IMG/VR virus record: IMGVR_UViG_3300023038_000043
Span: 1 to 9,440 of that record
Origin: a virus
Lineage: Duplodnaviria > Heunggongvirae > Uroviricota > Caudoviricetes
DNA length: 9,440 nt
Reading direction: 5' to 3' (one strand)
In this document: piece after piece, positions 3,516-9,440 of the stretch
How positions within the stretch are numbered: position 1 is the first letter of the stretch
How the letters are laid out: each line of letters starts with the position of its first letter
Notes under the pieces: generated by a model
What the model was told of the DNA's origin: nothing
What the model saw: only the letters and a program-made list of their open reading frames with translations
Databases searched by the model: none
Made by a program: the position numbers and the translations under genes

Positions 3516-4734
3516 CTCCACTCTCCTTTTTCTTACCGTTGTCATCGCCAGCAGAGGGACTGGTGGTCATGTTCATCGGTGTCAGATACACATCACCGCC
3601 TGGTCGGGGATTCATATCCTCCAGATCACGGCAGTCATTAGGGGAATAAATCCCCCAGTTGATCCCCGTGGCATACGCTTCAAAGCGGGATTTCATGTCG
3701 CCACGCAACAATGCTCCGGCATTAAATTTGGCGTAAAACCTCCCCTGTTTGCTCTCCCTGACCAGCCCTGTATTGATCCGTTGTTCAATACGGGTCAGAT
3801 ACGGCACAAGGGAATAGTTGATAAATCCGAGCCCCAGCTCTTCAATATTGTTGAAGGTGGCGCGATCGGTGTTCTGCACCATGTGCAATGGCACACGGAA
3901 CAGACGACAGATTTCTTCCAGCTGAAACTTGCGGGTTTCCAGGAACTGGCTGTCCTCGGCGTTCAGCGCCATCGACTTCCAGTCCAGCCCCATTTCCAGA
4001 ATCATCGGGCGGTGAGCATTGCCAAGCCCCGTGTGACGCTCCTCAAAATCTTTCTTCAGACGCTCGTAAGCATCCGGCGTGAGCTTTTGTTCCGTACGCA
4101 ACACACCGGATGTCACCGCACCATTACCAAACAACCTGGCACCGTGCTCCTCGGTTGCCGCTGCCAGTGAAATGGCCTCACGCGCATACGCAATGGGATT
4201 CAGCCCCACCAGTCCGTCCAGCGTCAGAGTGCGCACATGCCAGATTTTATCCTGGGTCAGCACATCCACGGAACCATCCGGAAACGTCACCTGATAAACC
4301 GGCTGCCACTGGCTGTTCAGCTTCGGTTCCACACAGCCCGGATCTATCGGAAGAAGCTCCACCACTTCCCCCAGTGCCTTTACCTTGTAGGCGTAAAAAT
4401 TCCCCCGCAGACACAGGCAGACAATGACCAGTTCCCAGAATTCCTGCGGCGTCATGTAGCCATTGGGTTTTGCCGAAATCAGCTTATGCAGCCGTTCATC
4501 CACCGCCCGTGTTTTAAGGGTGCCGCTGATTTTGTAGAGACTGCAGGGCAGCATACCAACAGACTCAGCCAGCACCCTGACGCAGGAATAGACCGCCGTC
4601 AGCCGCATGGCCCGCTGGCTGCTGATCCGCTTTCCGGTATAGGTGTCGTATGACAGCCCGATAGCCTCCGCCAGCTCTGCTGGCGTGGTCACCGGTGCGT
4701 CACTTTTTCGTTGAAATAACCCCGAAAAGAACAC
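3493..4734 (-). CDS. Portal protein, HK97 family (apparent GTG start)
   Basis: 413-aa ORF with GGAGG 6 nt upstream of the first (GTG) codon at 4734..4732. Size, position between terminase and protease, and acidic C-terminal tail are typical of portals. Overlaps the protease gene 5' end by at least 23 nt. Confidence 0.88.
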   Translation of the reverse strand: MFFSGLFQRKSDAPVTTPAELAEAIGLSYDTYTGKRISSQRAMRLTAVYSCVRVLAESVGMLPCSLYKISGTLKTRAVDERLHKLISAKPNGYMTPQEFWELVIVCLCLRGNFYAYKVKALGEVVELLPIDPGCVEPKLNSQWQPVYQVTFPDGSVDVLTQDKIWHVRTLTLDGLVGLNPIAYAREAISLAAATEEHGARLFGNGAVTSGVLRTEQKLTPDAYERLKKDFEERHTGLGNAHRPMILEMGLDWKSMALNAEDSQFLETRKFQLEEICRLFRVPLHMVQNTDRATFNNIEELGLGFINYSLVPYLTRIEQRINTGLVRESKQGRFYAKFNAGALLRGDMKSRFEAYATGINWGIYSPNDCRDLEDMNPRPGGDVYLTPMNMTTSPSAGDDNGKKKESGDADKTAS

Positions 4735-4916
4735 TATTTACCTCCGCCGACAGACTGCCGTGTACGGTCGAGATATCGTGCAACCAGCCACGACCAGAAC
4801 AGGCACAGCGCCCCGGCAACAACAAAACCCGCCGGGGGATAAATCAGCCAGGCGCCATACGCCAGCAAAAGCACACCCAGCACGCCCACCAGAGGCGTGA
4901 GAATTATCAGAAACAT
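4734..4916 (-). CDS. Small predicted two-TM membrane protein (60 aa) between terminase large subunit and portal
   Basis: ATG at 4916..4914 with GAGG 6 nt upstream; [49 protein letters not shown]... is strongly hydrophobic with host-like CTG-rich codons. Its stop TAG (4736..4734) overlaps the portal start codon. No family recognised. Confidence 0.5.
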
Positions 4917-4927
4917 AATGTCCTCGG

Positions 4928-6685
4928 TTAAAGCGAGCGGATACCAACACTAATCAGGTGTTCAGACAGATCCGGCTCCGGTTCACCGCCATTGACCAGC
5001 ATCCGGCTCATTGCTGTAAACATCGCAACAGGGCCGTCGATTTTTGCTTCAGGCGTGGATTTGTTCGGGAAGATATTGTCGTTTTTGTCCGGTTTTACCG
5101 TAACGTTAGACATCATCCAGTTCATGACCGGGTGATTGCTGTGGTGAAAACGCCCGGCATAGACCAGTGATTCCGTTTCCTTCATGGCCTCTGACAGATT
5201 GCGGACCGTCTGCGGAACTTCCACCAGCGGTATCCCTTCTTCAGCCAGAGCCAGACTGAACTGCATTGCACTCCACGGGTCAAATCCCAGCTCCCTCAGG
5301 TTTTCACCACCAATCCATTCCAGTAAGTCACTTTTTATCTGAGCATGATCGATAACATCACCATCCGTCAGGATGAGCTTATCCATCTCCGCCCATTTCC
5401 GGTAAAGTTCTGCCTGCTGCCGCGAGCACCGCTCCAGCCGTCCTTCCGGGAGCCAGAATTTAAAATCAGCATGAACATGTCCGTTATCGGTTCGCCAGAG
5501 TTTTGCCGCCGCACAGATATCAATCTTATGAGCAAGGTCGACGCCGACCCACATGGGATACGTTTTCAGCTCATGTCGTGGGGCAATATATTCGCATTTC
5601 TCCCACTTAATCATGTCCATCCAGGCAGACTCTGCTGTTACCCACACATTCATGTGTTTCGTGAAAAAATTCACCCGCGCTGAAACCTGTTCCTTCGCTT
5701 TTTTCGCCAGACGACGCAGATCATCCCAGCGTTTACAGATGCCCAGGCCCGGATTCGCTTTCTGCCAGACCGTTTCATCAAACGGATCATCTCCCTCATC
5801 GAGCGTGTAAATAATCGCAAAGTAGGAGTCGTCTTTTACCGCGCCCTCCACGTCACTGTTATAGCCTCGCAATACCTTGATGGCGTAATCGCGTTGCTCG
5901 TAACAAATCCCTTCCTTGTTAAAGCCCGCCGTGGTGATACCAAATAACAGGGACTGCAGACGGGCACCGGTTGCCGTTTCCAGAACGTCCCACACGTCGC
6001 GGGTTTTATGTGCATGCAGCTCATCAATAATGGCGCAGTGGATGTTCAGACCGTCCAGGTTGTTTGCATCCGAGGAAAGCGGTTCAAATTTTGATGCACT
6101 CTGCTCCTGGTAAATCGCCAGCTTGTTGAAATCAAACAACCGCCCGAGTGTCGACCGGGCTTTTCTGACCATATTTTTGGCGTCTTCAAACACGATTCTG
6201 GCCTGGTCACGCGTGGTTGCGGCTGAATACACCTCAGCCCCGCCTTCACCATCTGCCCCCGTCATATACAGACCGATACCCGATGACAGGGTTGATTTTG
6301 CGTTTTTACGGGCGACTTCGTTGTACGCCGTCCGGAACCGGCGCACCATCACCGGGCGCCCGCTGCCATCGCTGCGCATGACAACTTCCCCGGTCTCTTC
6401 ATTCACCAGCGGAATGACAAAACCAAAAATATTAATGAGGATAAAAACATGCCAGTCCATCAACTCAATGGGCTGACCTGCCAGCGCCCCTTTCACATGG
6501 GGCACAAATTTGTAGAAATTCAGGATGTGCTGCGCACGGGGTTCACTGAAATAAATCCCCCGCTCTTCGCCGTACTTCAGATCATCAAGAAAACGCTGGC
6601 AGGCCAGACGGACAAATTCGCCAGCGACAATTTCTCCTGCAACAACACGTTCGGCGTAGCGGATCCCGTCAGCCACTTTTGCCAT
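4928..6685 (-). CDS. Terminase large subunit (Terminase_1-like ATPase/nuclease)
   Basis: 585 aa; ATG at 6685..6683 shares a nucleotide with the small-subunit TGA (TGATG coupling). Contains a Walker-B-like hydrophobic-DE motif ([14 protein letters not shown]) and overall terminase-like layout. Lies between the small subunit and portal. Confidence 0.93.
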
Positions 6686-7167
6686 CAGTCTCTCGCTTTT
6701 AAAAGCTCTGCCAGTGGATCAACATCATCCGGTCCGGCGGTATTTACTTTCGCCCGGCTTGCCGGTGACATACCAAACTCTGCAAGCATCGCCCGGATCC
6801 GCTTCCAGGCATCCGCCTTCATCGCCGCAGCCGGATGTGCCTTGATCATCACATCGCCATTCTGCGTTTCCGTGCGGTAGGTATAACCCTCAACATCGAG
6901 TGTTTCGCAGTGATGCCGGTATTCGATGTAGGCTTCCACCAGTAACTCGAGTGCACGCGCATCAAGCTGAGAAATGATCCCTTCCGCATTCAGCTCTTCC
7001 GCCATTCGCCTGAACCAGTACTTCCCCTGCGCCCCTAAATGTTGCGGAATTTTAGGGAGACCTTTTTCATCCTTTTTAGCGGCTTTTTTGGGGTCTTTAA
7101 CGGGGCGCTTTGAGGGGTTGCCTCGTATCAAATGCAGGCGTGGCGGGGTTTTCGGGGGTCCTGACAT
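6685..7167 (-). CDS. Terminase small subunit (P27-family-like)
   Basis: 160 aa; ATG at 7167..7165. Basic Lys/Pro-rich N-terminus (PPKTPPRLHLIRGNPSKRPVKDPKKAAKKDEKGLP) followed by a helical region, typical of P27-type small subunits. Immediately upstream of and coupled to the large subunit. Confidence 0.85.
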   Translation of the reverse strand: MSGPPKTPPRLHLIRGNPSKRPVKDPKKAAKKDEKGLPKIPQHLGAQGKYWFRRMAEELNAEGIISQLDARALELLVEAYIEYRHHCETLDVEGYTYRTETQNGDVMIKAHPAAAMKADAWKRIRAMLAEFGMSPASRAKVNTAGPDDVDPLAELLKARD

Positions 7168-7180
7168 AATCGGTTTTACC

Positions 7181-7193
7181 TATCAATCGTTTG
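7181..7193. promoter_or_regulatory. IHF core-consensus match (TATCAATCGTTTG fits WATCAANNNNTTR), candidate cosB-like bending site
   Basis: Exact match to the IHF core consensus read directly in the sequence, 14-26 nt upstream of the terS start and next to an A7 tract (7205-7211). Functional assignment is inference by analogy to lambda cosB. Confidence 0.3.
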
Positions 7194-7244
7194 ATCGCAT
7201 TCCCAAAAAAAGTTTTCGAACCTGCGGCGATGCGAGAAAGGGTT

Positions 7245-7296
7245 GGCGGGCGGTCCCGGACAGCCAGGGCTGCAGGGATTTGACCCGCCCCTCCCC
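7245..7296. other. Candidate cos (cosN-like) site: GC-rich nested inverted repeats between HNH endonuclease and terS
   Basis: GGCGGGCGGTCCCGG (7245-7259) and GACCCGCCCCTCCCC (7282-7296) are imperfect inverted repeats flanking a central palindrome cagcc-ag-ggctg (7261-7272). Location between an HNH endonuclease and terS is where HK97-type phages carry cos. The exact nick positions cannot be derived from sequence alone. Confidence 0.35.
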
Positions 7297-7313
7297 ACAA
7301 GTGAGAATAATTA

Positions 7314-7664
7314 TCACCTGATTCGTTCGCGCGCTGTTTTCGCTTTGTGGCAGGGCCAGCACAGACTCTGCAGGTTGCTGTCTGCGTCTGTTCCGCCATG
7401 TGCTTTCGGGATGATGTGGTCGACAGTTTTCGCCTCGCGCACCACACCGACACGCAGACACAACTGACACAGACCTTTATCGCGCTTCAGAATACGGGCA
7501 CGAATCACCGTCCATTTTGAGCCATAACCACGCTGGTGGCGGCTCAGTCCGCGCTGGTGCTGTGCCCAGCCTTCACCACGATGTTTATCGCAGTAGCCAG
7601 AACTGTCTGTCGTTGTGCCTGCGCAGCCTCGCTTACGGCATGCGCGGGGGATCCGTGATGGCAT
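7314..7664 (-). CDS. HNH endonuclease (packaging-associated, HK97 gp74-like)
   Basis: 116 aa; Cys-x2-Cys...His...Asn...His...Cys-x2-Cys layout (CQLCLRVGVVREAKTVDHIIPKAHGGTDADSNLQSLCWPCHKAKT) plus an N-terminal Cys cluster. Located directly upstream of cos/terS. Confidence 0.9.
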   Translation of the reverse strand: MPSRIPRACRKRGCAGTTTDSSGYCDKHRGEGWAQHQRGLSRHQRGYGSKWTVIRARILKRDKGLCQLCLRVGVVREAKTVDHIIPKAHGGTDADSNLQSLCWPCHKAKTARERIR

Positions 7665-7682
7665 AGAATTTCACTCTCCTGA

Positions 7683-7691
7683 TGGTAAAAT
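7683..7691 (+). promoter_or_regulatory. Candidate extended -10 promoter (TGgTAAAAT) for the plus-strand 70-aa gene
   Basis: TGn plus TAAAAT (5/6 match to TATAAT) lies 33-41 nt upstream of the ATG at 7724; no good -35, which is tolerated for extended -10 promoters. GGAG RBS at 7715-7718. Confidence 0.3.
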
Positions 7692-7723
7692 AACCATTCC
7701 TTAAAAACCTATACGGAGAACAA

Positions 7724-7936
7724 ATGAAAAATACTATTTCAAAAGGATTTCACCGGACAGGCGTTCTGTTGGCTATTTTGGTGTTGATGTTGAGCTTTGG
7801 TTTCTTTTTATTAACAGGTGCTGGTACAGGAATCTCGTTATTTGCTGTATTAGTTTCCCTGGTATGTGCCTTACTGACATACGGCATACTCAGACTGGTC
7901 GGATGGGCCGTTAACGGATTCATAAAAGATAACTAA
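7724..7936 (+). CDS. Small two-TM membrane protein (70 aa), opposite-strand AT-rich moron-like gene
   Basis: ATG at 7724 with GGAG 5 nt upstream; MKNTISKGFHRTGVLLAILVLMLSFGFFLLTGAGTGISLFAVLVSLVCALLTYGILRLVGWAVNGF... has two hydrophobic helices. About 40% GC by hand count versus visibly GC-richer flanks, and AT-rich codons (tta, att, ttt). Followed by a hairpin. Confidence 0.6.
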   Translation: MKNTISKGFHRTGVLLAILVLMLSFGFFLLTGAGTGISLFAVLVSLVCALLTYGILRLVGWAVNGFIKDN

Positions 7937-7945
7937 AACATTATC

Positions 7946-7970
7946 GCAGCCCCTCACACTGAAGGGCTGC
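7946..7970. terminator. Hairpin between convergent small genes (7-bp stem gcagccc/gggctgc, about 11-nt loop); weak bidirectional terminator candidate
   Basis: Perfect 7-bp GC-rich inverted repeat 10 nt after the plus-strand TAA (7934-7936) and 15 nt after the minus-strand 60-aa gene stop. Flanking U-tracts are poor on both strands, so termination is probably partial. Confidence 0.35.
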
Positions 7971-7984
7971 TGTAATGCTGGTGA

Positions 7985-8167
7985 TCAGTTCTGCGTACAC
8001 AGTCGAACGCCATCAATAAGCTGGCAGACCTGAAACGCGGTATCGAAAAGCTGGCGCGCCTTATCCAGACTGACGCATCCCACCAGGAAAAAAGGCACCA
8101 GTATCGCTACCAGTGCCCATTTCGCCGCCGTTCGCGGCATTCTGTGTGTCCAGTGTTTTCGGTTCAT
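7985..8167 (-). CDS. Small lipoprotein-like / membrane protein (60 aa) with candidate lipobox LVGC
   Basis: ATG at 8167..8165 lies 1 nt after the upstream 37-aa ORF stop (TGAcATG), preceded by a GGTGGTG SD-like sequence. Basic n-region, hydrophobic h-region (WALVAILVPFFLVG), then Cys, leaving a roughly 29-aa mature peptide with 3 Cys. An internal ATG at 8140 would give a canonical 22-aa signal peptide. Confidence 0.5.
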   Translation of the reverse strand: MNRKHWTHRMPRTAAKWALVAILVPFFLVGCVSLDKARQLFDTAFQVCQLIDGVRLCTQN

Positions 8168-8168
8168 G

Positions 8169-8282
8169 TCACCACCAACGCACAGCCAAAATCAGAACAG
8201 CAATCACCACAAGGCGAATTGCAAAGGCCGCAGCCCTTGTCAAATCAAGGCTCGCGGGAGTTTCCACTTCAATACCTTTCAT
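8169..8282 (-). CDS. 37-aa tail-anchored hydrophobic peptide (below the ORF-track length cutoff)
   Basis: Hand translation: ATG at 8282..8280, GAGG 9 nt upstream, product MKGIEVETPASLDLTRAAAFAIRLVVIAVLILAVRWW, stop TGA at 8171..8169, tightly coupled to the 60-aa gene. A TATAAA -10-like hexamer (rc of 8307-8312) lies upstream. Confidence 0.4.
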   Translation of the reverse strand: MKGIEVETPASLDLTRAAAFAIRLVVIAVLILAVRWW

Positions 8283-8373
8283 AATGGACAACCTCAAAAA
8301 GAATCTTTTATACTTTCCCACGAGGATTTTCTCCGTACTCACTACTCACAATTTCCTCTTTGACGTGAAAACT

Positions 8374-8416
8374 AAAAACCCCGGACTGTTCCAGCAGCCG
8401 GGGTTTTGTTTTTTAT
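8374..8416. terminator. Strong bidirectional rho-independent terminator
   Basis: AAAAA (8374-8378), stem CCCCGG(A)CTG (8379-8388), 6-nt loop, CAGCCGGGG (8395-8403), then TTTTGTTTTTTATTT (8404-8416). Stem is 9 bp with one bulge. U-tracts are available on both strands. Sits immediately after the 93-aa gene stop. Confidence 0.75.
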
Positions 8417-8694
8417 TTACTGCCTTGGGTGCGGCATCTGGCTATTTCATTCCTGGCTTTACTGTCACCGCGACAGATACAACGCACCGTGTCTCCGGTC
8501 AGCGTGGTAATGTAGGCTTCATCCGTTTTTTCCACCGAAATGCATGGTACATTTCCATCCCGGCAATACTCCACTTGGGCAGCAAGGTGAGTGTTGCGCG
8601 GGTAAAATTCCAGGCGATACATATTCCCCAGAACATGCACTTCTTCAACCTGACGCCCATCTTCCGTTACCGTGATTTTTTTCAGTGCGTACAT
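8413..8694 (-). CDS. Hypothetical Cys-containing protein (93 aa), no recognised family
   Basis: ATG at 8694..8692 with perfect GGAGG 5 nt upstream (rc of 8700-8704); MYALKKITVTEDGRQVEEVHVLGNMYRLEFYPRNTHLAAQVEYCRDGNVPCISVEKTD...CICRGD...; no TM segment or signal peptide. Bracketed by terminator-like hairpins on both sides. Confidence 0.55.
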   Translation of the reverse strand: MYALKKITVTEDGRQVEEVHVLGNMYRLEFYPRNTHLAAQVEYCRDGNVPCISVEKTDEAYITTLTGDTVRCICRGDSKARNEIARCRTQGSK

Positions 8695-8723
8695 ACATAC
8701 CTCCGTTCTTTCGTTTTTTGAGC

Positions 8724-8747
8724 AATAAAAAAGCCGCTCATGGCGGC
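8724..8747 (-). terminator. Candidate rho-independent terminator downstream of the endolysin gene (5-bp GC stem plus U-run on the minus-strand transcript)
   Basis: gccgc (8733-8737) / gcggc (8743-8747) stem with tcatg loop; on the minus-strand RNA the hairpin is followed by UUUUUUAUU (rc of 8724-8732). Short stem, so strength is uncertain. Confidence 0.35.
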
Positions 8748-8764
8748 CCTGTATGTTTTGCAAG

Positions 8765-9142
8765 CTATCGTTTCAATTGAAAATGTGGGCCGTCTTTAAG
8801 CGTCCGCCAGTCACCGCCCCATTCGATGGCAGTTCCAAGCTCTGCGGCAGCCTGCTTAAATGCCTGCGCGATTTTCTCGTACAGAGGCCAGTCCCATGAC
8901 ACCTGGCTGCCAACATAAGCCACAACATCCACAGCATCACCGGTCAGGTGGCGGCTGTTCATGGTCTGGCTTTTCCCTTCCGCGACCAGCTGTTTCTGGC
9001 GTTCTTTCGTGCGCAGCCCTTCCGTAATACCGAAATCAACCTCCGTCAGCTCCAGCGCACGGCGAACAACAGCAACCAGCTGTGGTTTGACGCCCTCCAG
9101 ATTTTTTTCACTGCGACGACTGAATCTGAATTTACCCGACAT
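8765..9142 (-). CDS. Endolysin, peptidase M15 family (VanY / L-alanyl-D-glutamate peptidase-like)
   Basis: ATG at 9142..9140 with GGAGG 5 nt upstream; the track ORF begins at an upstream GTG that overlaps the SD. Motifs SRHLTGDAVDV and WGGDW...DGPHFQL match the His/Asp/His zinc-binding signature of M15 peptidases as I recall it. Immediately downstream of a membrane protein. Confidence 0.82.
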   Translation of the reverse strand: MSGKFRFSRRSEKNLEGVKPQLVAVVRRALELTEVDFGITEGLRTKERQKQLVAEGKSQTMNSRHLTGDAVDVVAYVGSQVSWDWPLYEKIAQAFKQAAAELGTAIEWGGDWRTLKDGPHFQLKR

Positions 9143-9144
9143 GC

Positions 9145-9420
9145 TCACCTCCGGAATGAAAGGATTTTTGAAACGTTCCCGCGTGCACGTATCACCAGCA
9201 CGCAGAACAGCAGATTAAGCCCCACCGCCAGCCAGTTCGCCGCTAACGGGCGACCGCACAGATAGCTGAGTGGTGCAAAGGCATAAAGCAGCATCAGTAG
9301 CCAGGCCAGCCATGACATCAGCGGTTTATGTCTCGACTCACCACGACGATAAAAAAAGAGCGTCAGCACGATAACCGTGCTTAACACCACATTCAGTAAT
9401 CCGGGAAGGTTACTTAACAT
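9145..9420 (-). CDS. Putative holin (three predicted TM segments, 91 aa)
   Basis: ATG at 9420..9418 with GGAGG 5 nt upstream (rc of 9426-9430); the track ORF starts at an upstream GTG. Three hydrophobic stretches; the stop lies 2 nt from the endolysin ATG and overlaps its SD. Called by position and topology only. Confidence 0.55.
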   Translation of the reverse strand: MLSNLPGLLNVVLSTVIVLTLFFYRRGESRHKPLMSWLAWLLMLLYAFAPLSYLCGRPLAANWLAVGLNLLFCVLVIRARGNVSKILSFRR

Positions 9421-9440
9421 TACCGCCTCCACCCCGCAGA

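What the first reader, a model, noticed from the sequence alone, without database searches (positions are those of the whole stretch)
7670..7975. Opposite-strand AT-rich moron: 70-aa two-TM protein with its own promoter-like and terminator-like signals, wedged between the lysis cassette and the HNH/packaging genes
Every structural and lysis gene is on the minus strand, but this gene is on the plus strand, is about 40% GC by my hand count (flanks visibly richer), uses AT-rich codons, and has a GGAG RBS, a TGgTAAAAT extended -10 candidate and a downstream hairpin. That is the classic signature of a horizontally acquired moron expressed from the repressed prophage, at the lysis/cos junction where lambda carries bor. 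Such small membrane proteins are often superinfection-exclusion, anti-phage or host-fitness factors; this one matches none I recognise.
Basis: partly seen in the sequence, partly recalled or inferred. Interest (0 to 1): 0.65.

Follow-up and report, generated by a model that had tools for sequence, protein, structure and literature searches.

The report
Opposite-strand prophage gene for small membrane protein
A real, self-contained 70-codon gene for a two-helix inner-membrane protein sits backwards between the lysis and DNA-packaging genes of an E. coli prophage (the spot where phage lambda keeps bor); it belongs to a large protein family that no database names, and its function, most plausibly blocking other phages, is untested.

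Summary
The ORF at 7724-7936 (+) is a real gene. dN/dS is 0.12-0.34, all indels are in frame, and the invariant N-terminus still varies at synonymous sites. It lies in a 259-bp cassette (7680-7938) that is the GC minimum of the window (0.38 vs 0.52, z = -4). The cassette carries a TGnTAAAAT extended -10, whose "n" varies among alleles, and an invariant GGAG.

One detail is wrong. The downstream hairpin (7939-7977) is conserved flank, also present in relatives that lack the gene, and only its minus strand has a U-tract.

The protein is not an orphan. A profile search finds a family (>=438 clusters) of ~65-77-aa two-TM hairpins with cytoplasmic-face motifs GFHRxG and YxxxRxxGWxxxGF. No Pfam, NCBIfam, PHROG or PADLOC model covers it.

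Every phage-borne member inspected, down to 23% identity, sits on the opposite strand at the lysis/packaging junction. This holds across four endolysin types and several terminase types. More distant members lie beside transposases or integrases.

It is therefore a classic moron, positionally analogous to lambda bor. Function is inferred only. My best guess is a lysogen-expressed inner-membrane exclusion or defence factor (about 0.35-0.4). It is an ordinary kind of element, but it exposes an unnamed, testable family.

The parts
7680..7938 (.). Exchangeable AT-rich cassette (moron): promoter, leader and ORF
   Evidence: Homology to STEC309 and UMNF18 prophages stops after the HNH RBS (about 7679) and resumes at about 7939. 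Those phages carry a different cassette of about 350 bp in the slot. GC is 0.382, the minimum of the window, z = -4.0.
7683..7691 (+). Extended -10 promoter candidate TGgTAAAAT (hexamer 7686-7691). No -35. Predicted transcription start near 7698.
   Evidence: It is the only TGNTANAAT in the window. TG and TAAAAT are invariant while the middle base varies (G/T/C) in six alleles whose ORFs differ by dS 0.3-1.1. It is retained where the left neighbour is a lambda-type Nu1 instead of HNH. The start site is inferred, not shown.
7715..7718 (+). Shine-Dalgarno GGAG, 5 nt before the ATG, in an unstructured leader of about 26 nt
   Evidence: TACGGAG is invariant in five aligned loci of four alleles; two other alleles vary within the GGAG (ACGGAA in L031, TATGGAG in L030). 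The leader folds no better than shuffled sequence (dG -4.5, z +0.28).
7724..7936 (+). Gene for a 70-aa two-TM inner-membrane protein. Predicted topology N-in/C-in. Motifs G8-F-H-R-x-G13 and Y53-x3-R57-x2-G60-W-x3-G65-F.
   Evidence: ORF. dN/dS 0.12-0.34, in-frame indels only, synonymous variation within the invariant first 11 codons. Helical hairpin in the AF2 model. Family invariants H10, R11, G13, Y53, W61. Antisense frames are not conserved as open frames.
7939..7977 (.). Strong hairpin shared by the convergent ORF70 and lysis-cassette transcripts. It is a conserved flank or boundary element.
   Evidence: dG -22.8 (+) and -26.7 (-) kcal/mol, z -4.1 and -6.3. Called terminator-like only on the minus strand. 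Present in relatives without the ORF and in lambda-terminase-type relatives with it.
7314..7664 (-). HNH endonuclease gene, divergent left neighbour. Its RBS (7674-7679, complement GGAGAG) abuts the cassette.
   Evidence: phrog_144 E = 2.6e-43. 34% identical to HK97 gp74 HNH. In the nine HNH-linked loci with called genes (E. coli, E. albertii, Citrobacter) the spacing to the ORF is a constant 59-60 nt; in Erwinia and L037 it is larger (67 to about 450 nt).
7985..8167 (-). Convergent right neighbour: a 60-aa lipoprotein-like protein, the last gene of the lysis cassette
   Evidence: phrog_7528 E = 2.6e-34. Lipobox LVGC is visible in the translation. It is the constant last gene of the lysis cassette in relatives.

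Best explanation
The element is a moron: a self-contained, horizontally exchanged transcription unit of 259 bp, placed against the direction of the late operon between the lysis cassette and the HNH/terminase packaging genes of a lambdoid, P27/HK97-type E. coli prophage.

Proposed expression (inferred): a -35-independent extended -10 promoter and an unstructured leader with a good SD would give constitutive, low-level expression in the lysogen. During lytic growth, Q-antiterminated late transcription reads through the cassette in antisense and should shut it off.

The product: a 70-aa helical hairpin in the inner membrane with both ends in the cytoplasm. The conserved GFHRxG and YxxxRxxGWxxxGF motifs would pack at the cytoplasmic face. 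The short periplasmic loop is the variable, indel-prone part.

Proposed function (inferred, not shown): it acts at the inner membrane of the lysogen as a superinfection-exclusion or anti-phage factor. It would interfere with genome entry of incoming phages, or trigger membrane failure on infection. The variable periplasmic loop would set specificity and the conserved hairpin would be the scaffold.

Confidence by layer: real gene and moron architecture about 0.85-0.9; lysogen-expressed inner-membrane protein about 0.7; exclusion or defence role about 0.35-0.4.
For: Real gene:
- dN/dS is 0.12-0.34 with dS up to about 1.1. Indels are in frame, and synonymous changes occur inside the invariant MKNTISKGFHR.

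Cassette and moron behaviour:
- Breakpoints lie at about 7679/7680 and 7938/7939 relative to relatives that carry a different gene between the same flanks.
- GC is 0.38 vs 0.52.
- ORF dS to the tcmA_3 allele is 1.12 while the adjacent HNH dS is 0.16, so the two have different histories.
- Lambda-terminase-type prophages carry the ORF, its promoter and a decayed remnant of the HNH 5' end, so the unit moved as a block.

Promoter and SD footprints. Leader unstructured.

Topology:
- Net positive charge at both termini and a neutral or acidic loop (sequence).
- Family members have 60-90-aa loop inserts containing paired Cys.
- AF2 hairpin.

Family: 100 representatives at E <= 1e-3 among 1.84e9 proteins and 438 clusters, with invariant H10, R11, G13, Y53 and W61.

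Position:
- Opposite strand at the lysis/packaging junction in every phage-borne member inspected, including members only 23-31% identical.
- This holds with M15, GH108, GH24 or GH19 endolysins, and with HNH+Terminase_4/TerL, Nu1/gpA, DUF1441/gpA, Terminase_2/Terminase_6N or DUF4055-type packaging genes.
- Non-phage members lie beside Tn3 transposase/resolvase, an integrase fragment, or IS elements.

Precedents:
- Lambda bor is at the same junction on the opposite strand.
- Small inner-membrane exclusion proteins such as T4 Imm and P22 SieA (PMC11436027).
- HK97 gp15 is annotated 'moron product'. Its exclusion activity is from my own knowledge of Cumby et al. 2012, J Bacteriol 194:5012.
Against: - No expression data exist. 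Neither the promoter nor the protein has been observed.
- There is no similarity to any known exclusion or defence protein: PADLOC 0 hits, PHROGs 0 hits, HK97 gp15 no alignment.
- Loop variability may simply reflect weak constraint rather than an arms race.
- The functional assignment rests on context and precedent only.
- The conserved residues face the cytoplasm. That would fit a role involving a cytoplasmic or membrane partner at least as well as a periplasmic block of DNA entry.
- The environmental subfamilies are absent from IMG/VR, so the ancestral function need not be phage-related.
- The gene is rare: 16 of 5,426 complete E. coli genomes.
Confidence: 0.4

Rival explanations
1. Lysogenic-conversion or host-fitness factor unrelated to phages. 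The membrane protein would alter envelope physiology (stress, acid, antimicrobial-peptide or serum tolerance, transporter or sensor modulation), as Bor does for serum resistance from the same genomic position.
For: The position and orientation match bor. It is cargo of diverse mobile elements, including non-phage ones. The environmental subfamilies are not in viral contigs. The conserved cytoplasmic-face motifs suggest a conserved host partner. It also occurs in toxin-converting prophages such as the LT-II prophage.
Against: There is no homology to Bor/Iss or to any characterised small regulatory membrane protein. It is rare in E. coli. No phenotype is known.
Confidence: 0.2
2. Membrane-active toxin: an abortive-infection effector, addiction module or type-I-toxin-like or holin-like pore former. 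It would depolarise the membrane when over-produced or when triggered.
For: It is small, very hydrophobic and carried by mobile elements. A two-TM protein of about 70 aa resembles class II holins or pinholins in size. Many small hydrophobic prophage proteins are toxic (general knowledge).
Against: The leader is short and unstructured, with a strong SD and a constitutive-type promoter. This is the opposite of the long, translation-blocking leaders and antisense RNAs of type I toxins. No conserved antisense ORF or Rfam RNA was found. No holin or Hok family match reaches threshold. No cognate antitoxin gene is present in the cassette. Strongly conserved polar and aromatic motifs are atypical of simple pore-forming toxins.
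Confidence: 0.12
3. Lysis-timing or holin modulator. It would act as an antiholin-like membrane protein that protects the lysogen from leaky holin, or that tunes lysis, which would explain its constant place beside lysis cassettes.
For: It is strictly adjacent to the lysis cassette in all phage-borne members. It shares the membrane compartment with holins.
Against: It is transcribed against the late operon, so it would be silenced exactly when holins are made. The partner holin families differ between contexts: Phage_holin_3_7 plus Phage_holin_8 versus P21-type Phage_holin_2_1. Sister prophages with identical holins lack it. Non-phage members exist.
Confidence: 0.08
4. The cassette works mainly in cis. 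A convergent promoter plus a hairpin would insulate or attenuate read-through from the lysis genes into the packaging genes, or supply antisense RNA for processing the late transcript. The ORF would be incidental.
For: In this window the hairpin together with the reverse complement of the ORF's 3' end forms a terminator-like hairpin plus U-run on the minus strand. The ORF70 mRNA would be fully complementary to the late transcript.
Against: There is strong protein-level purifying selection with saturated synonymous divergence. The protein family is conserved far beyond any nucleotide similarity. The hairpin exists without the cassette.
Confidence: 0.05

Closest known systems
Phage lambda bor (Bor/Iss outer-membrane lipoprotein moron)
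   Same: It occupies the same slot: immediately after the last lysis gene, before the packaging region, and transcribed opposite to the late operon. It is a small envelope protein. Its independent expression in the lysogen is established knowledge (Barondess and Beckwith 1990, 1995; from my own knowledge).
   Different: Bor is a secreted lipoprotein of the outer membrane. ORF70 has no signal peptide or lipobox and is a two-TM inner-membrane hairpin. There is no Pfam Lambda_Bor hit. It is a positional analogue only, not a homologue.
HK97 gp15 moron (superinfection-exclusion inner-membrane protein)
   Same: It is a small (62-aa) membrane protein encoded by a moron in an HK97-type genome. It is the functional model I favour. 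Its block of DNA entry is from my own knowledge of Cumby et al. 2012; the paper is listed in the references of PMC11436027.
   Different: gp15 sits among the tail genes on the same strand as its neighbours. By eye, its translation shows one N-terminal hydrophobic stretch followed by a charged tail. It has no detectable similarity to ORF70.
T4 Imm and P22 SieA (inner-membrane blocks to DNA injection)
   Same: They are phage-encoded inner-membrane proteins that stop incoming DNA (PMC11436027). That Imm is likewise small with two TM segments is from my own knowledge.
   Different: There is no sequence relationship: no PHROG or Pfam hit of ORF70 or of 30 family members to any annotated family. Imm is made by a lytic phage, and SieA is much larger.
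Class II holins / pinholins (for example S21, Phage_holin_2_1)
   Same: About 70 aa with two TM helices, encoded next to lysis genes.
   Different: ORF70 has the opposite orientation to the late operon. No holin family reaches threshold (Phage_holin_3_6 E = 4.1). The prophage already has two holin-family genes. The conserved GFHR and GW motifs are not holin features.
Pfam DUF6050
   Same: It is the only Pfam model with a weak alignment over most of the protein (E = 0.009, 16.7 bits).
   Different: The score is below the gathering threshold (27 bits). Only 1 of 30 family members gives any hit. I treat it as hydrophobic-bias noise.

Membership tests
Moron (sense of Juhala/Hendrix 2000) | Extra gene present between two genes that are adjacent, or differently filled, in related phages | tested here: met
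   The flanks are the same (HNH RBS on the left, hairpin on the right), but the slot holds a 98-aa minus-strand gene in STEC309, UMNF18 and SC407. I did not find an empty slot.
Moron (sense of Juhala/Hendrix 2000) | Own promoter | tested here: inconclusive
   The sequence supports it: a TGnTAAAAT footprint conserved across six alleles and across two different left neighbours. Activity was not measured.
Moron (sense of Juhala/Hendrix 2000) | Own terminator | tested here: inconclusive
   A strong hairpin starts 3 nt after the stop codon. However, it is shared flank sequence and lacks a U-tract on the plus strand.
Moron (sense of Juhala/Hendrix 2000) | Nucleotide composition unlike the surrounding genome | tested here: met
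   GC 0.382 vs 0.521, z = -4.0, the lowest in the window. GC3 0.41 vs 0.50-0.63.
Moron (sense of Juhala/Hendrix 2000) | Expressed from the repressed prophage | not testable with these tools
   Needs RNA-seq, 5' RACE or tagging in a lysogen.
Unnamed GFHR / GW-GF two-TM hairpin family (defined here) | Length about 65-77 aa, with N-terminal [RK]-I-S-x-G-F-H-R-x-G, then TM1, a variable loop, TM2, then Y-x3-R-x2-G-W-x3-G-F | tested here: met
   All invariant positions are present: H10, R11, G13, Y53, W61, plus F9, G65 and F66. Profile hits reach E = 8e-30 to 1e-3 over the full length.
Lambda Bor / Iss | Signal peptide with lipobox, and the Lambda_Bor domain | tested here: not met
   No lipobox in the sequence. 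No Pfam hit.
Known superinfection-exclusion and defence proteins (PADLOC, PHROG families including Imm, Sie and gp15 types) | Sequence similarity to a described family | tested here: not met
   PADLOC 0 hits. PHROGs 0 hits for ORF70 and no consistent hit for 30 members. No alignment to HK97 gp15.
Type I toxin-antitoxin toxins (Hok/Gef, Ldr, TisB and similar) | Single-TM peptide under about 60 aa, long structured leader, overlapping antisense RNA | tested here: not met
   ORF70 has two TM helices and an unstructured leader of about 26 nt. No Rfam antisense RNA. No Pfam Hok hit.
Holins (class II / pinholin) | Match to a holin family and co-transcription with the endolysin | tested here: not met
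   Only Phage_holin_3_6 at E = 4.1. The gene is on the opposite strand to the lysis genes.

The most novel reading that the evidence does not exclude
The GFHRxG...YxxxRxxGWxxxGF hairpin would be a previously unrecognised, widespread membrane module carried by mobile elements. It would form a new class of phage-exclusion or defence proteins, with a conserved cytoplasm-facing scaffold and an exchangeable periplasmic loop or domain as the specificity determinant. In enterobacterial lambdoid phages it would have been kept for a long evolutionary time as a fixed 'bor-slot' resident, while the lysis and packaging modules were swapped around it.
Probability: 0.22. Interest if true: 0.6.

Novelty: new member of a known kind. 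Interest (0 to 1): 0.4.

Why it matters
Morons are where temperate phages keep genes that change the host: virulence, serum resistance, and exclusion of or defence against other phages. This one is ordinary in architecture. It does, however, uncover a large, motif-defined protein family with hundreds of clusters, from Enterobacteriaceae prophages to environmental metagenome contigs. That family has no Pfam, NCBIfam, PHROG or PADLOC model and no sequenced-phage representative, and genome annotation pipelines often skip it (7 of 16 complete E. coli genomes). Its strict placement at the lysis/packaging junction, kept across many module combinations, makes it a well-defined and cheap candidate for exclusion and defence screens, and a useful marker of mosaic boundaries in lambdoid phages. 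If it proves to be only a neutral or marginal membrane protein, the finding remains a routine annotation.

Tried and rejected
Searches that found nothing usable:
- Pfam, NCBIfam, PHROGs and PADLOC scans of ORF70 and of 30 family members gave no family at threshold. The weak DUF6050 hit (16.7 vs 27 bits) was rejected because only 1 of 30 members gives it.
- PDB sequence-profile search: best E = 0.34, a reaction-centre L chain 'G-I-H-R' stretch, which I take as chance.
- Foldseek against BFVD and PDB: nothing at E <= 0.001, as expected for a bare helical hairpin. The afdb50 library was unavailable.
- tblastn of ORF70 and two remote members against 50,697 sequenced phages, blastn of the cassette against the same set, and tblastn of ORF70 and one environmental member (P0115) against 72,556 plasmids: no match. 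The SEG low-complexity filter was on.
- IMG/VR scans with two environmental subfamily profiles: no relatives.
- The search for related loci with the full 30-sequence alignment failed because the alignment was too diverse.
- Two literature searches found nothing on this gene or family.

Ideas tested and rejected:
- Antisense ORF 7750-7923 (-): not conserved as an open frame in relatives.
- Rfam: nothing in 7100-8500 reaches threshold.
- Type-I-toxin reading: rejected on the short unstructured leader and the two TM helices.
- Homology to HK97 gp15: none.
- Fusion partners of long family members (tRNA_anti-like OB fold, DUF2569) gave no functional clue.
Full report

The window is the late region of a lambdoid prophage with P27/HK97-type head genes. 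All of these genes are on the minus strand:
- holin (9145-9432)
- M15 endolysin (8765-9148)
- two small ORFs
- a 60-aa lipoprotein-like gene (7985-8167)
- HNH endonuclease (7314-7664)
- P27-family small terminase, large terminase, portal, protease and capsid

The single exception is the ORF at 7724-7936 on the plus strand, 70 aa. An ORF of this length is not evidence by itself, because one search lists many spurious ones.

The composition claim holds. ORF GC is 0.399 and GC3 is 0.41, against GC3 of 0.50-0.63 in the neighbours. The 259-bp segment 7680-7938 is the GC minimum of the whole window: 0.382 vs 0.521, z = -4.0. No non-overlapping window falls below 0.44.

- GGAG at 7715-7718, 5 nt before the ATG.
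- TGGTAAAAT at 7683-7691.
- A strong hairpin at 7939-7977, with dG -22.8 kcal/mol on the plus strand and -26.7 on the minus strand, z -4.1 and -6.3.

**2. Is it a gene?**

Yes. Homologues from E. coli, E. albertii and Citrobacter are 54-67% identical, and every length difference is in frame. Pairwise dN/dS is 0.12-0.34 with dS up to about 1.1. The eleven invariant N-terminal residues are encoded with varying synonymous codons, so the constraint acts on the protein and not on the DNA or RNA. The antisense frames are interrupted in relatives. No Rfam family matches the region.

**3. Is it a cassette?**

Prophages in STEC309, UMNF18 and SC407 have the same flanks at about 91-97% identity. Between them they carry a different segment of about 350 bp, with a 98-aa minus-strand gene. 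Homology breaks just after the HNH ribosome-binding site (about 7679) and resumes at about 7939.

The promoter-like element therefore lies inside the cassette. The hairpin does not: it is a conserved boundary element, present with or without the ORF. The generic scan calls it terminator-like only on the minus strand. There, in this window, the reverse complement of the ORF's 3' end supplies a U-rich tail.

The promoter call is supported by phylogenetic footprinting, not by motif statistics, since one TGNTANAAT per window is expected by chance:
- TG and TAAAAT are invariant while the middle base is G, T or C in six alleles. TACGGAG is invariant in five aligned loci of four alleles, while two other alleles vary within the GGAG. 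The spacer between these elements diverges.
- The element persists where the left neighbour is a lambda-type Nu1 gene instead of HNH.
- Those lambda-type loci still carry a decayed remnant of the HNH 5' end upstream of the promoter. The ORF, its promoter and a scrap of HNH therefore moved as one block.
- The ORF and the adjacent HNH have different divergence histories: dS 1.12 versus 0.16 against the same relative.

**4. What is the protein?**

The AF2 model gives two long helices (3-30 and 39-69, mean pLDDT 70), and hydropathy shows two hydrophobic segments.

The topology N-in/C-in is an inference, based on:
- positive charges clustered at both ends (K2, K7, R11; R57, K68);
- a neutral or acidic loop;
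- distant members that insert 60-90 residues with paired cysteines into the loop.

No Pfam, NCBIfam, PHROG or PADLOC model matches. The first word-indexed search found only five clusters. An exhaustive profile search over 1.84 billion representatives found 100 proteins at E <= 1e-3. Most are 65-77 aa and match over their full length. A second profile search listed 438 clusters, none with a Pfam domain or an informative name.

The alignment shows invariant H10, R11, G13, Y53 and W61, and near-invariant F9, G65 and F66. This defines two motifs at the same (cytoplasmic) ends of the two helices: [RK]-I-S-x-G-F-H-R-x-G and Y-x3-R-x2-G-W-x3-G-F. Both have the form G-aromatic-x3-G. The loop is the variable part.

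Scanning 30 members individually confirms that no curated family covers them. PDB sequence and fold searches are uninformative.

**5. Context across the family**

In every phage-borne member I inspected, the gene is on the opposite strand between the end of the lysis cassette and the start of the packaging genes.
- Close alleles sit next to HNH + Terminase_4 + TerL. The spacing to HNH is a constant 59-60 nt in the nine HNH-linked loci with called genes, and larger (67 to about 450 nt) in Erwinia and L037. The endolysin is M15 or GH108, and the tails are myovirus- or siphovirus-type.
- Alleles 56-57% identical sit next to lambda Nu1/gpA, including an LT-II enterotoxin prophage.
- An Erwinia rhapontici allele (40%) lies between a GH24 lysozyme and Terminase_2/Terminase_6N.
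- Members only 23-31% identical to the query lie between P21-type holin plus GH24 lysozyme (or a GH19 lysin) and gpA/Nu1/DUF1441, DUF4055-portal or TerL packaging modules.
- A Salmonella prophage of another type carries a 96-aa member. It is followed by a 318-aa fusion of the same hairpin to an OB-fold domain, again against the local gene direction.

Non-phage members lie beside IS elements and a fimbrial operon, a Tn3 transposase and resolvase, or an integrase fragment. Two environmental subfamilies are absent from IMG/VR.

Abundance and annotation:
- 16 of 5,426 complete E. coli genomes carry an allele, and it is unannotated in 7 of them.
- No sequenced phage or plasmid in the collections has it.
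- 14 IMG/VR prophage contigs do have it.

**6. How it most likely works**

Shown:
- a real, selected gene;
- an exchangeable, AT-rich cassette;
- conserved promoter and SD footprints;
- an unstructured leader;
- a two-helix membrane hairpin with conserved motifs at one face;
- carriage on mobile elements.

Inferred:
- constitutive expression in the lysogen from a -35-independent extended -10 promoter;
- silencing during lytic growth by convergent, Q-antiterminated late transcription (Q-type antiterminators are present in the relatives);
- N-in/C-in topology.

Speculative but favoured (about 0.35-0.4): an inner-membrane superinfection-exclusion or defence role, following the precedents of HK97 gp15, T4 Imm and P22 SieA (partly my own knowledge), with the variable loop as the specificity element.

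The rivals, with my probabilities, are a phage-unrelated host-fitness factor like Bor (0.2), a membrane toxin or abortive-infection effector (0.12), a lysis modulator (0.08) and a purely cis-acting element (0.05). The arguments for and against each are given under 'rival explanations'.

**7. Comparison with known systems**

- Lambda bor is at the same junction and in the same orientation, but it is an unrelated outer-membrane lipoprotein.
- HK97 gp15 is the functional model, but it shows no similarity and sits elsewhere in the genome.
- The window's HNH is homologous to HK97 gp74, which lies at the right genome end next to cos. By analogy, cos here should lie between HNH and TerS, one gene beyond the cassette.
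- Holin, type-I-toxin and DUF6050 memberships were tested and not met.

**8. Verdict**

The moron interpretation is supported in every respect that can be computed, except the ownership of the terminator. The element is an ordinary kind of thing, a prophage moron for a small membrane protein.

It is still more than an orphan ORF. It is a member of a large, motif-defined, unnamed family with a strikingly constant genomic address in lambdoid phages. Interest is moderate (0.4). Novelty: a new member of a known kind.

Noticed in passing
window 8169-8763 (-): Two extra same-strand genes lie between the endolysin and the 60-aa lipoprotein gene: a 116-aa protein (phrog_33497) and a 57-aa C-terminal-TM protein (phrog_4493). 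In close relatives (L012, L013, L015) the endolysin and the 60-aa gene are adjacent. GC is 0.46-0.48. This is a second variable slot inside the lysis cassette.
   Followed up: partly
window 7985-8167 (-): A 60-aa protein with a signal peptide and lipobox (LVGC), phrog_7528, is the constant last gene of the lysis cassette. It is a candidate o-spanin-like lipoprotein, but no recognisable i-spanin partner is present. The only weak hit is NCBIfam spanin2 at E = 0.11.
   Followed up: no
window 4734-4916 (-): A 60-aa two-TM ORF sits between the large terminase and the portal gene. A small gene is conserved at this position in all relatives and is annotated only as hypothetical.
   Followed up: no
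L002 3083-3379 (-), L003 3086-3382 (-), L053 2586-2882 (-): The alternative occupant of the same slot is a soluble 98-aa protein on the late-operon strand. It has no Pfam family. The slot therefore seems never to be empty.
   Followed up: partly
L023 6346-6450 and L038 4364-4468 (Erwinia); L031 about 5900-5945 and L055 (lambda-terminase type): Fragments or decayed remnants of the HNH 5' end flank the ORF cassette. These are recombination scars showing that the ORF and the HNH start travelled together.
   Followed up: partly
L055 6133-7278 (E. coli O8:H8 16F5M1D1): Heat-labile enterotoxin IIA A and B chain genes sit inside the lysis cassette, between the holin and the endolysin, of a prophage that also carries an unannotated allele of the ORF.
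   Followed up: no
L020 7001-8183 (Salmonella enterica prophage): Two family members lie in tandem: a 96-aa hairpin, followed by a 318-aa protein that starts with a second GFHR hairpin fused to a tRNA_anti-like OB domain. Both are on the strand opposite to the surrounding phage replication genes.
   Followed up: partly
E. coli complete genomes, hits H26-H28 and H30-H32: RefSeq/PGAP annotation omits this gene in 7 of the 16 complete genomes that carry it. Family counts taken from annotations will therefore be too low.
   Followed up: partly
window 8285-8415: The intergenic stretch between the 57-aa and 116-aa genes has a plus-strand promoter-like site (TGGACA-18-TATACT, 10 of 12 matches). It also gives sub-threshold Rfam hits, including sar antisense RNA at E = 0.4. 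Probably chance.
   Followed up: no
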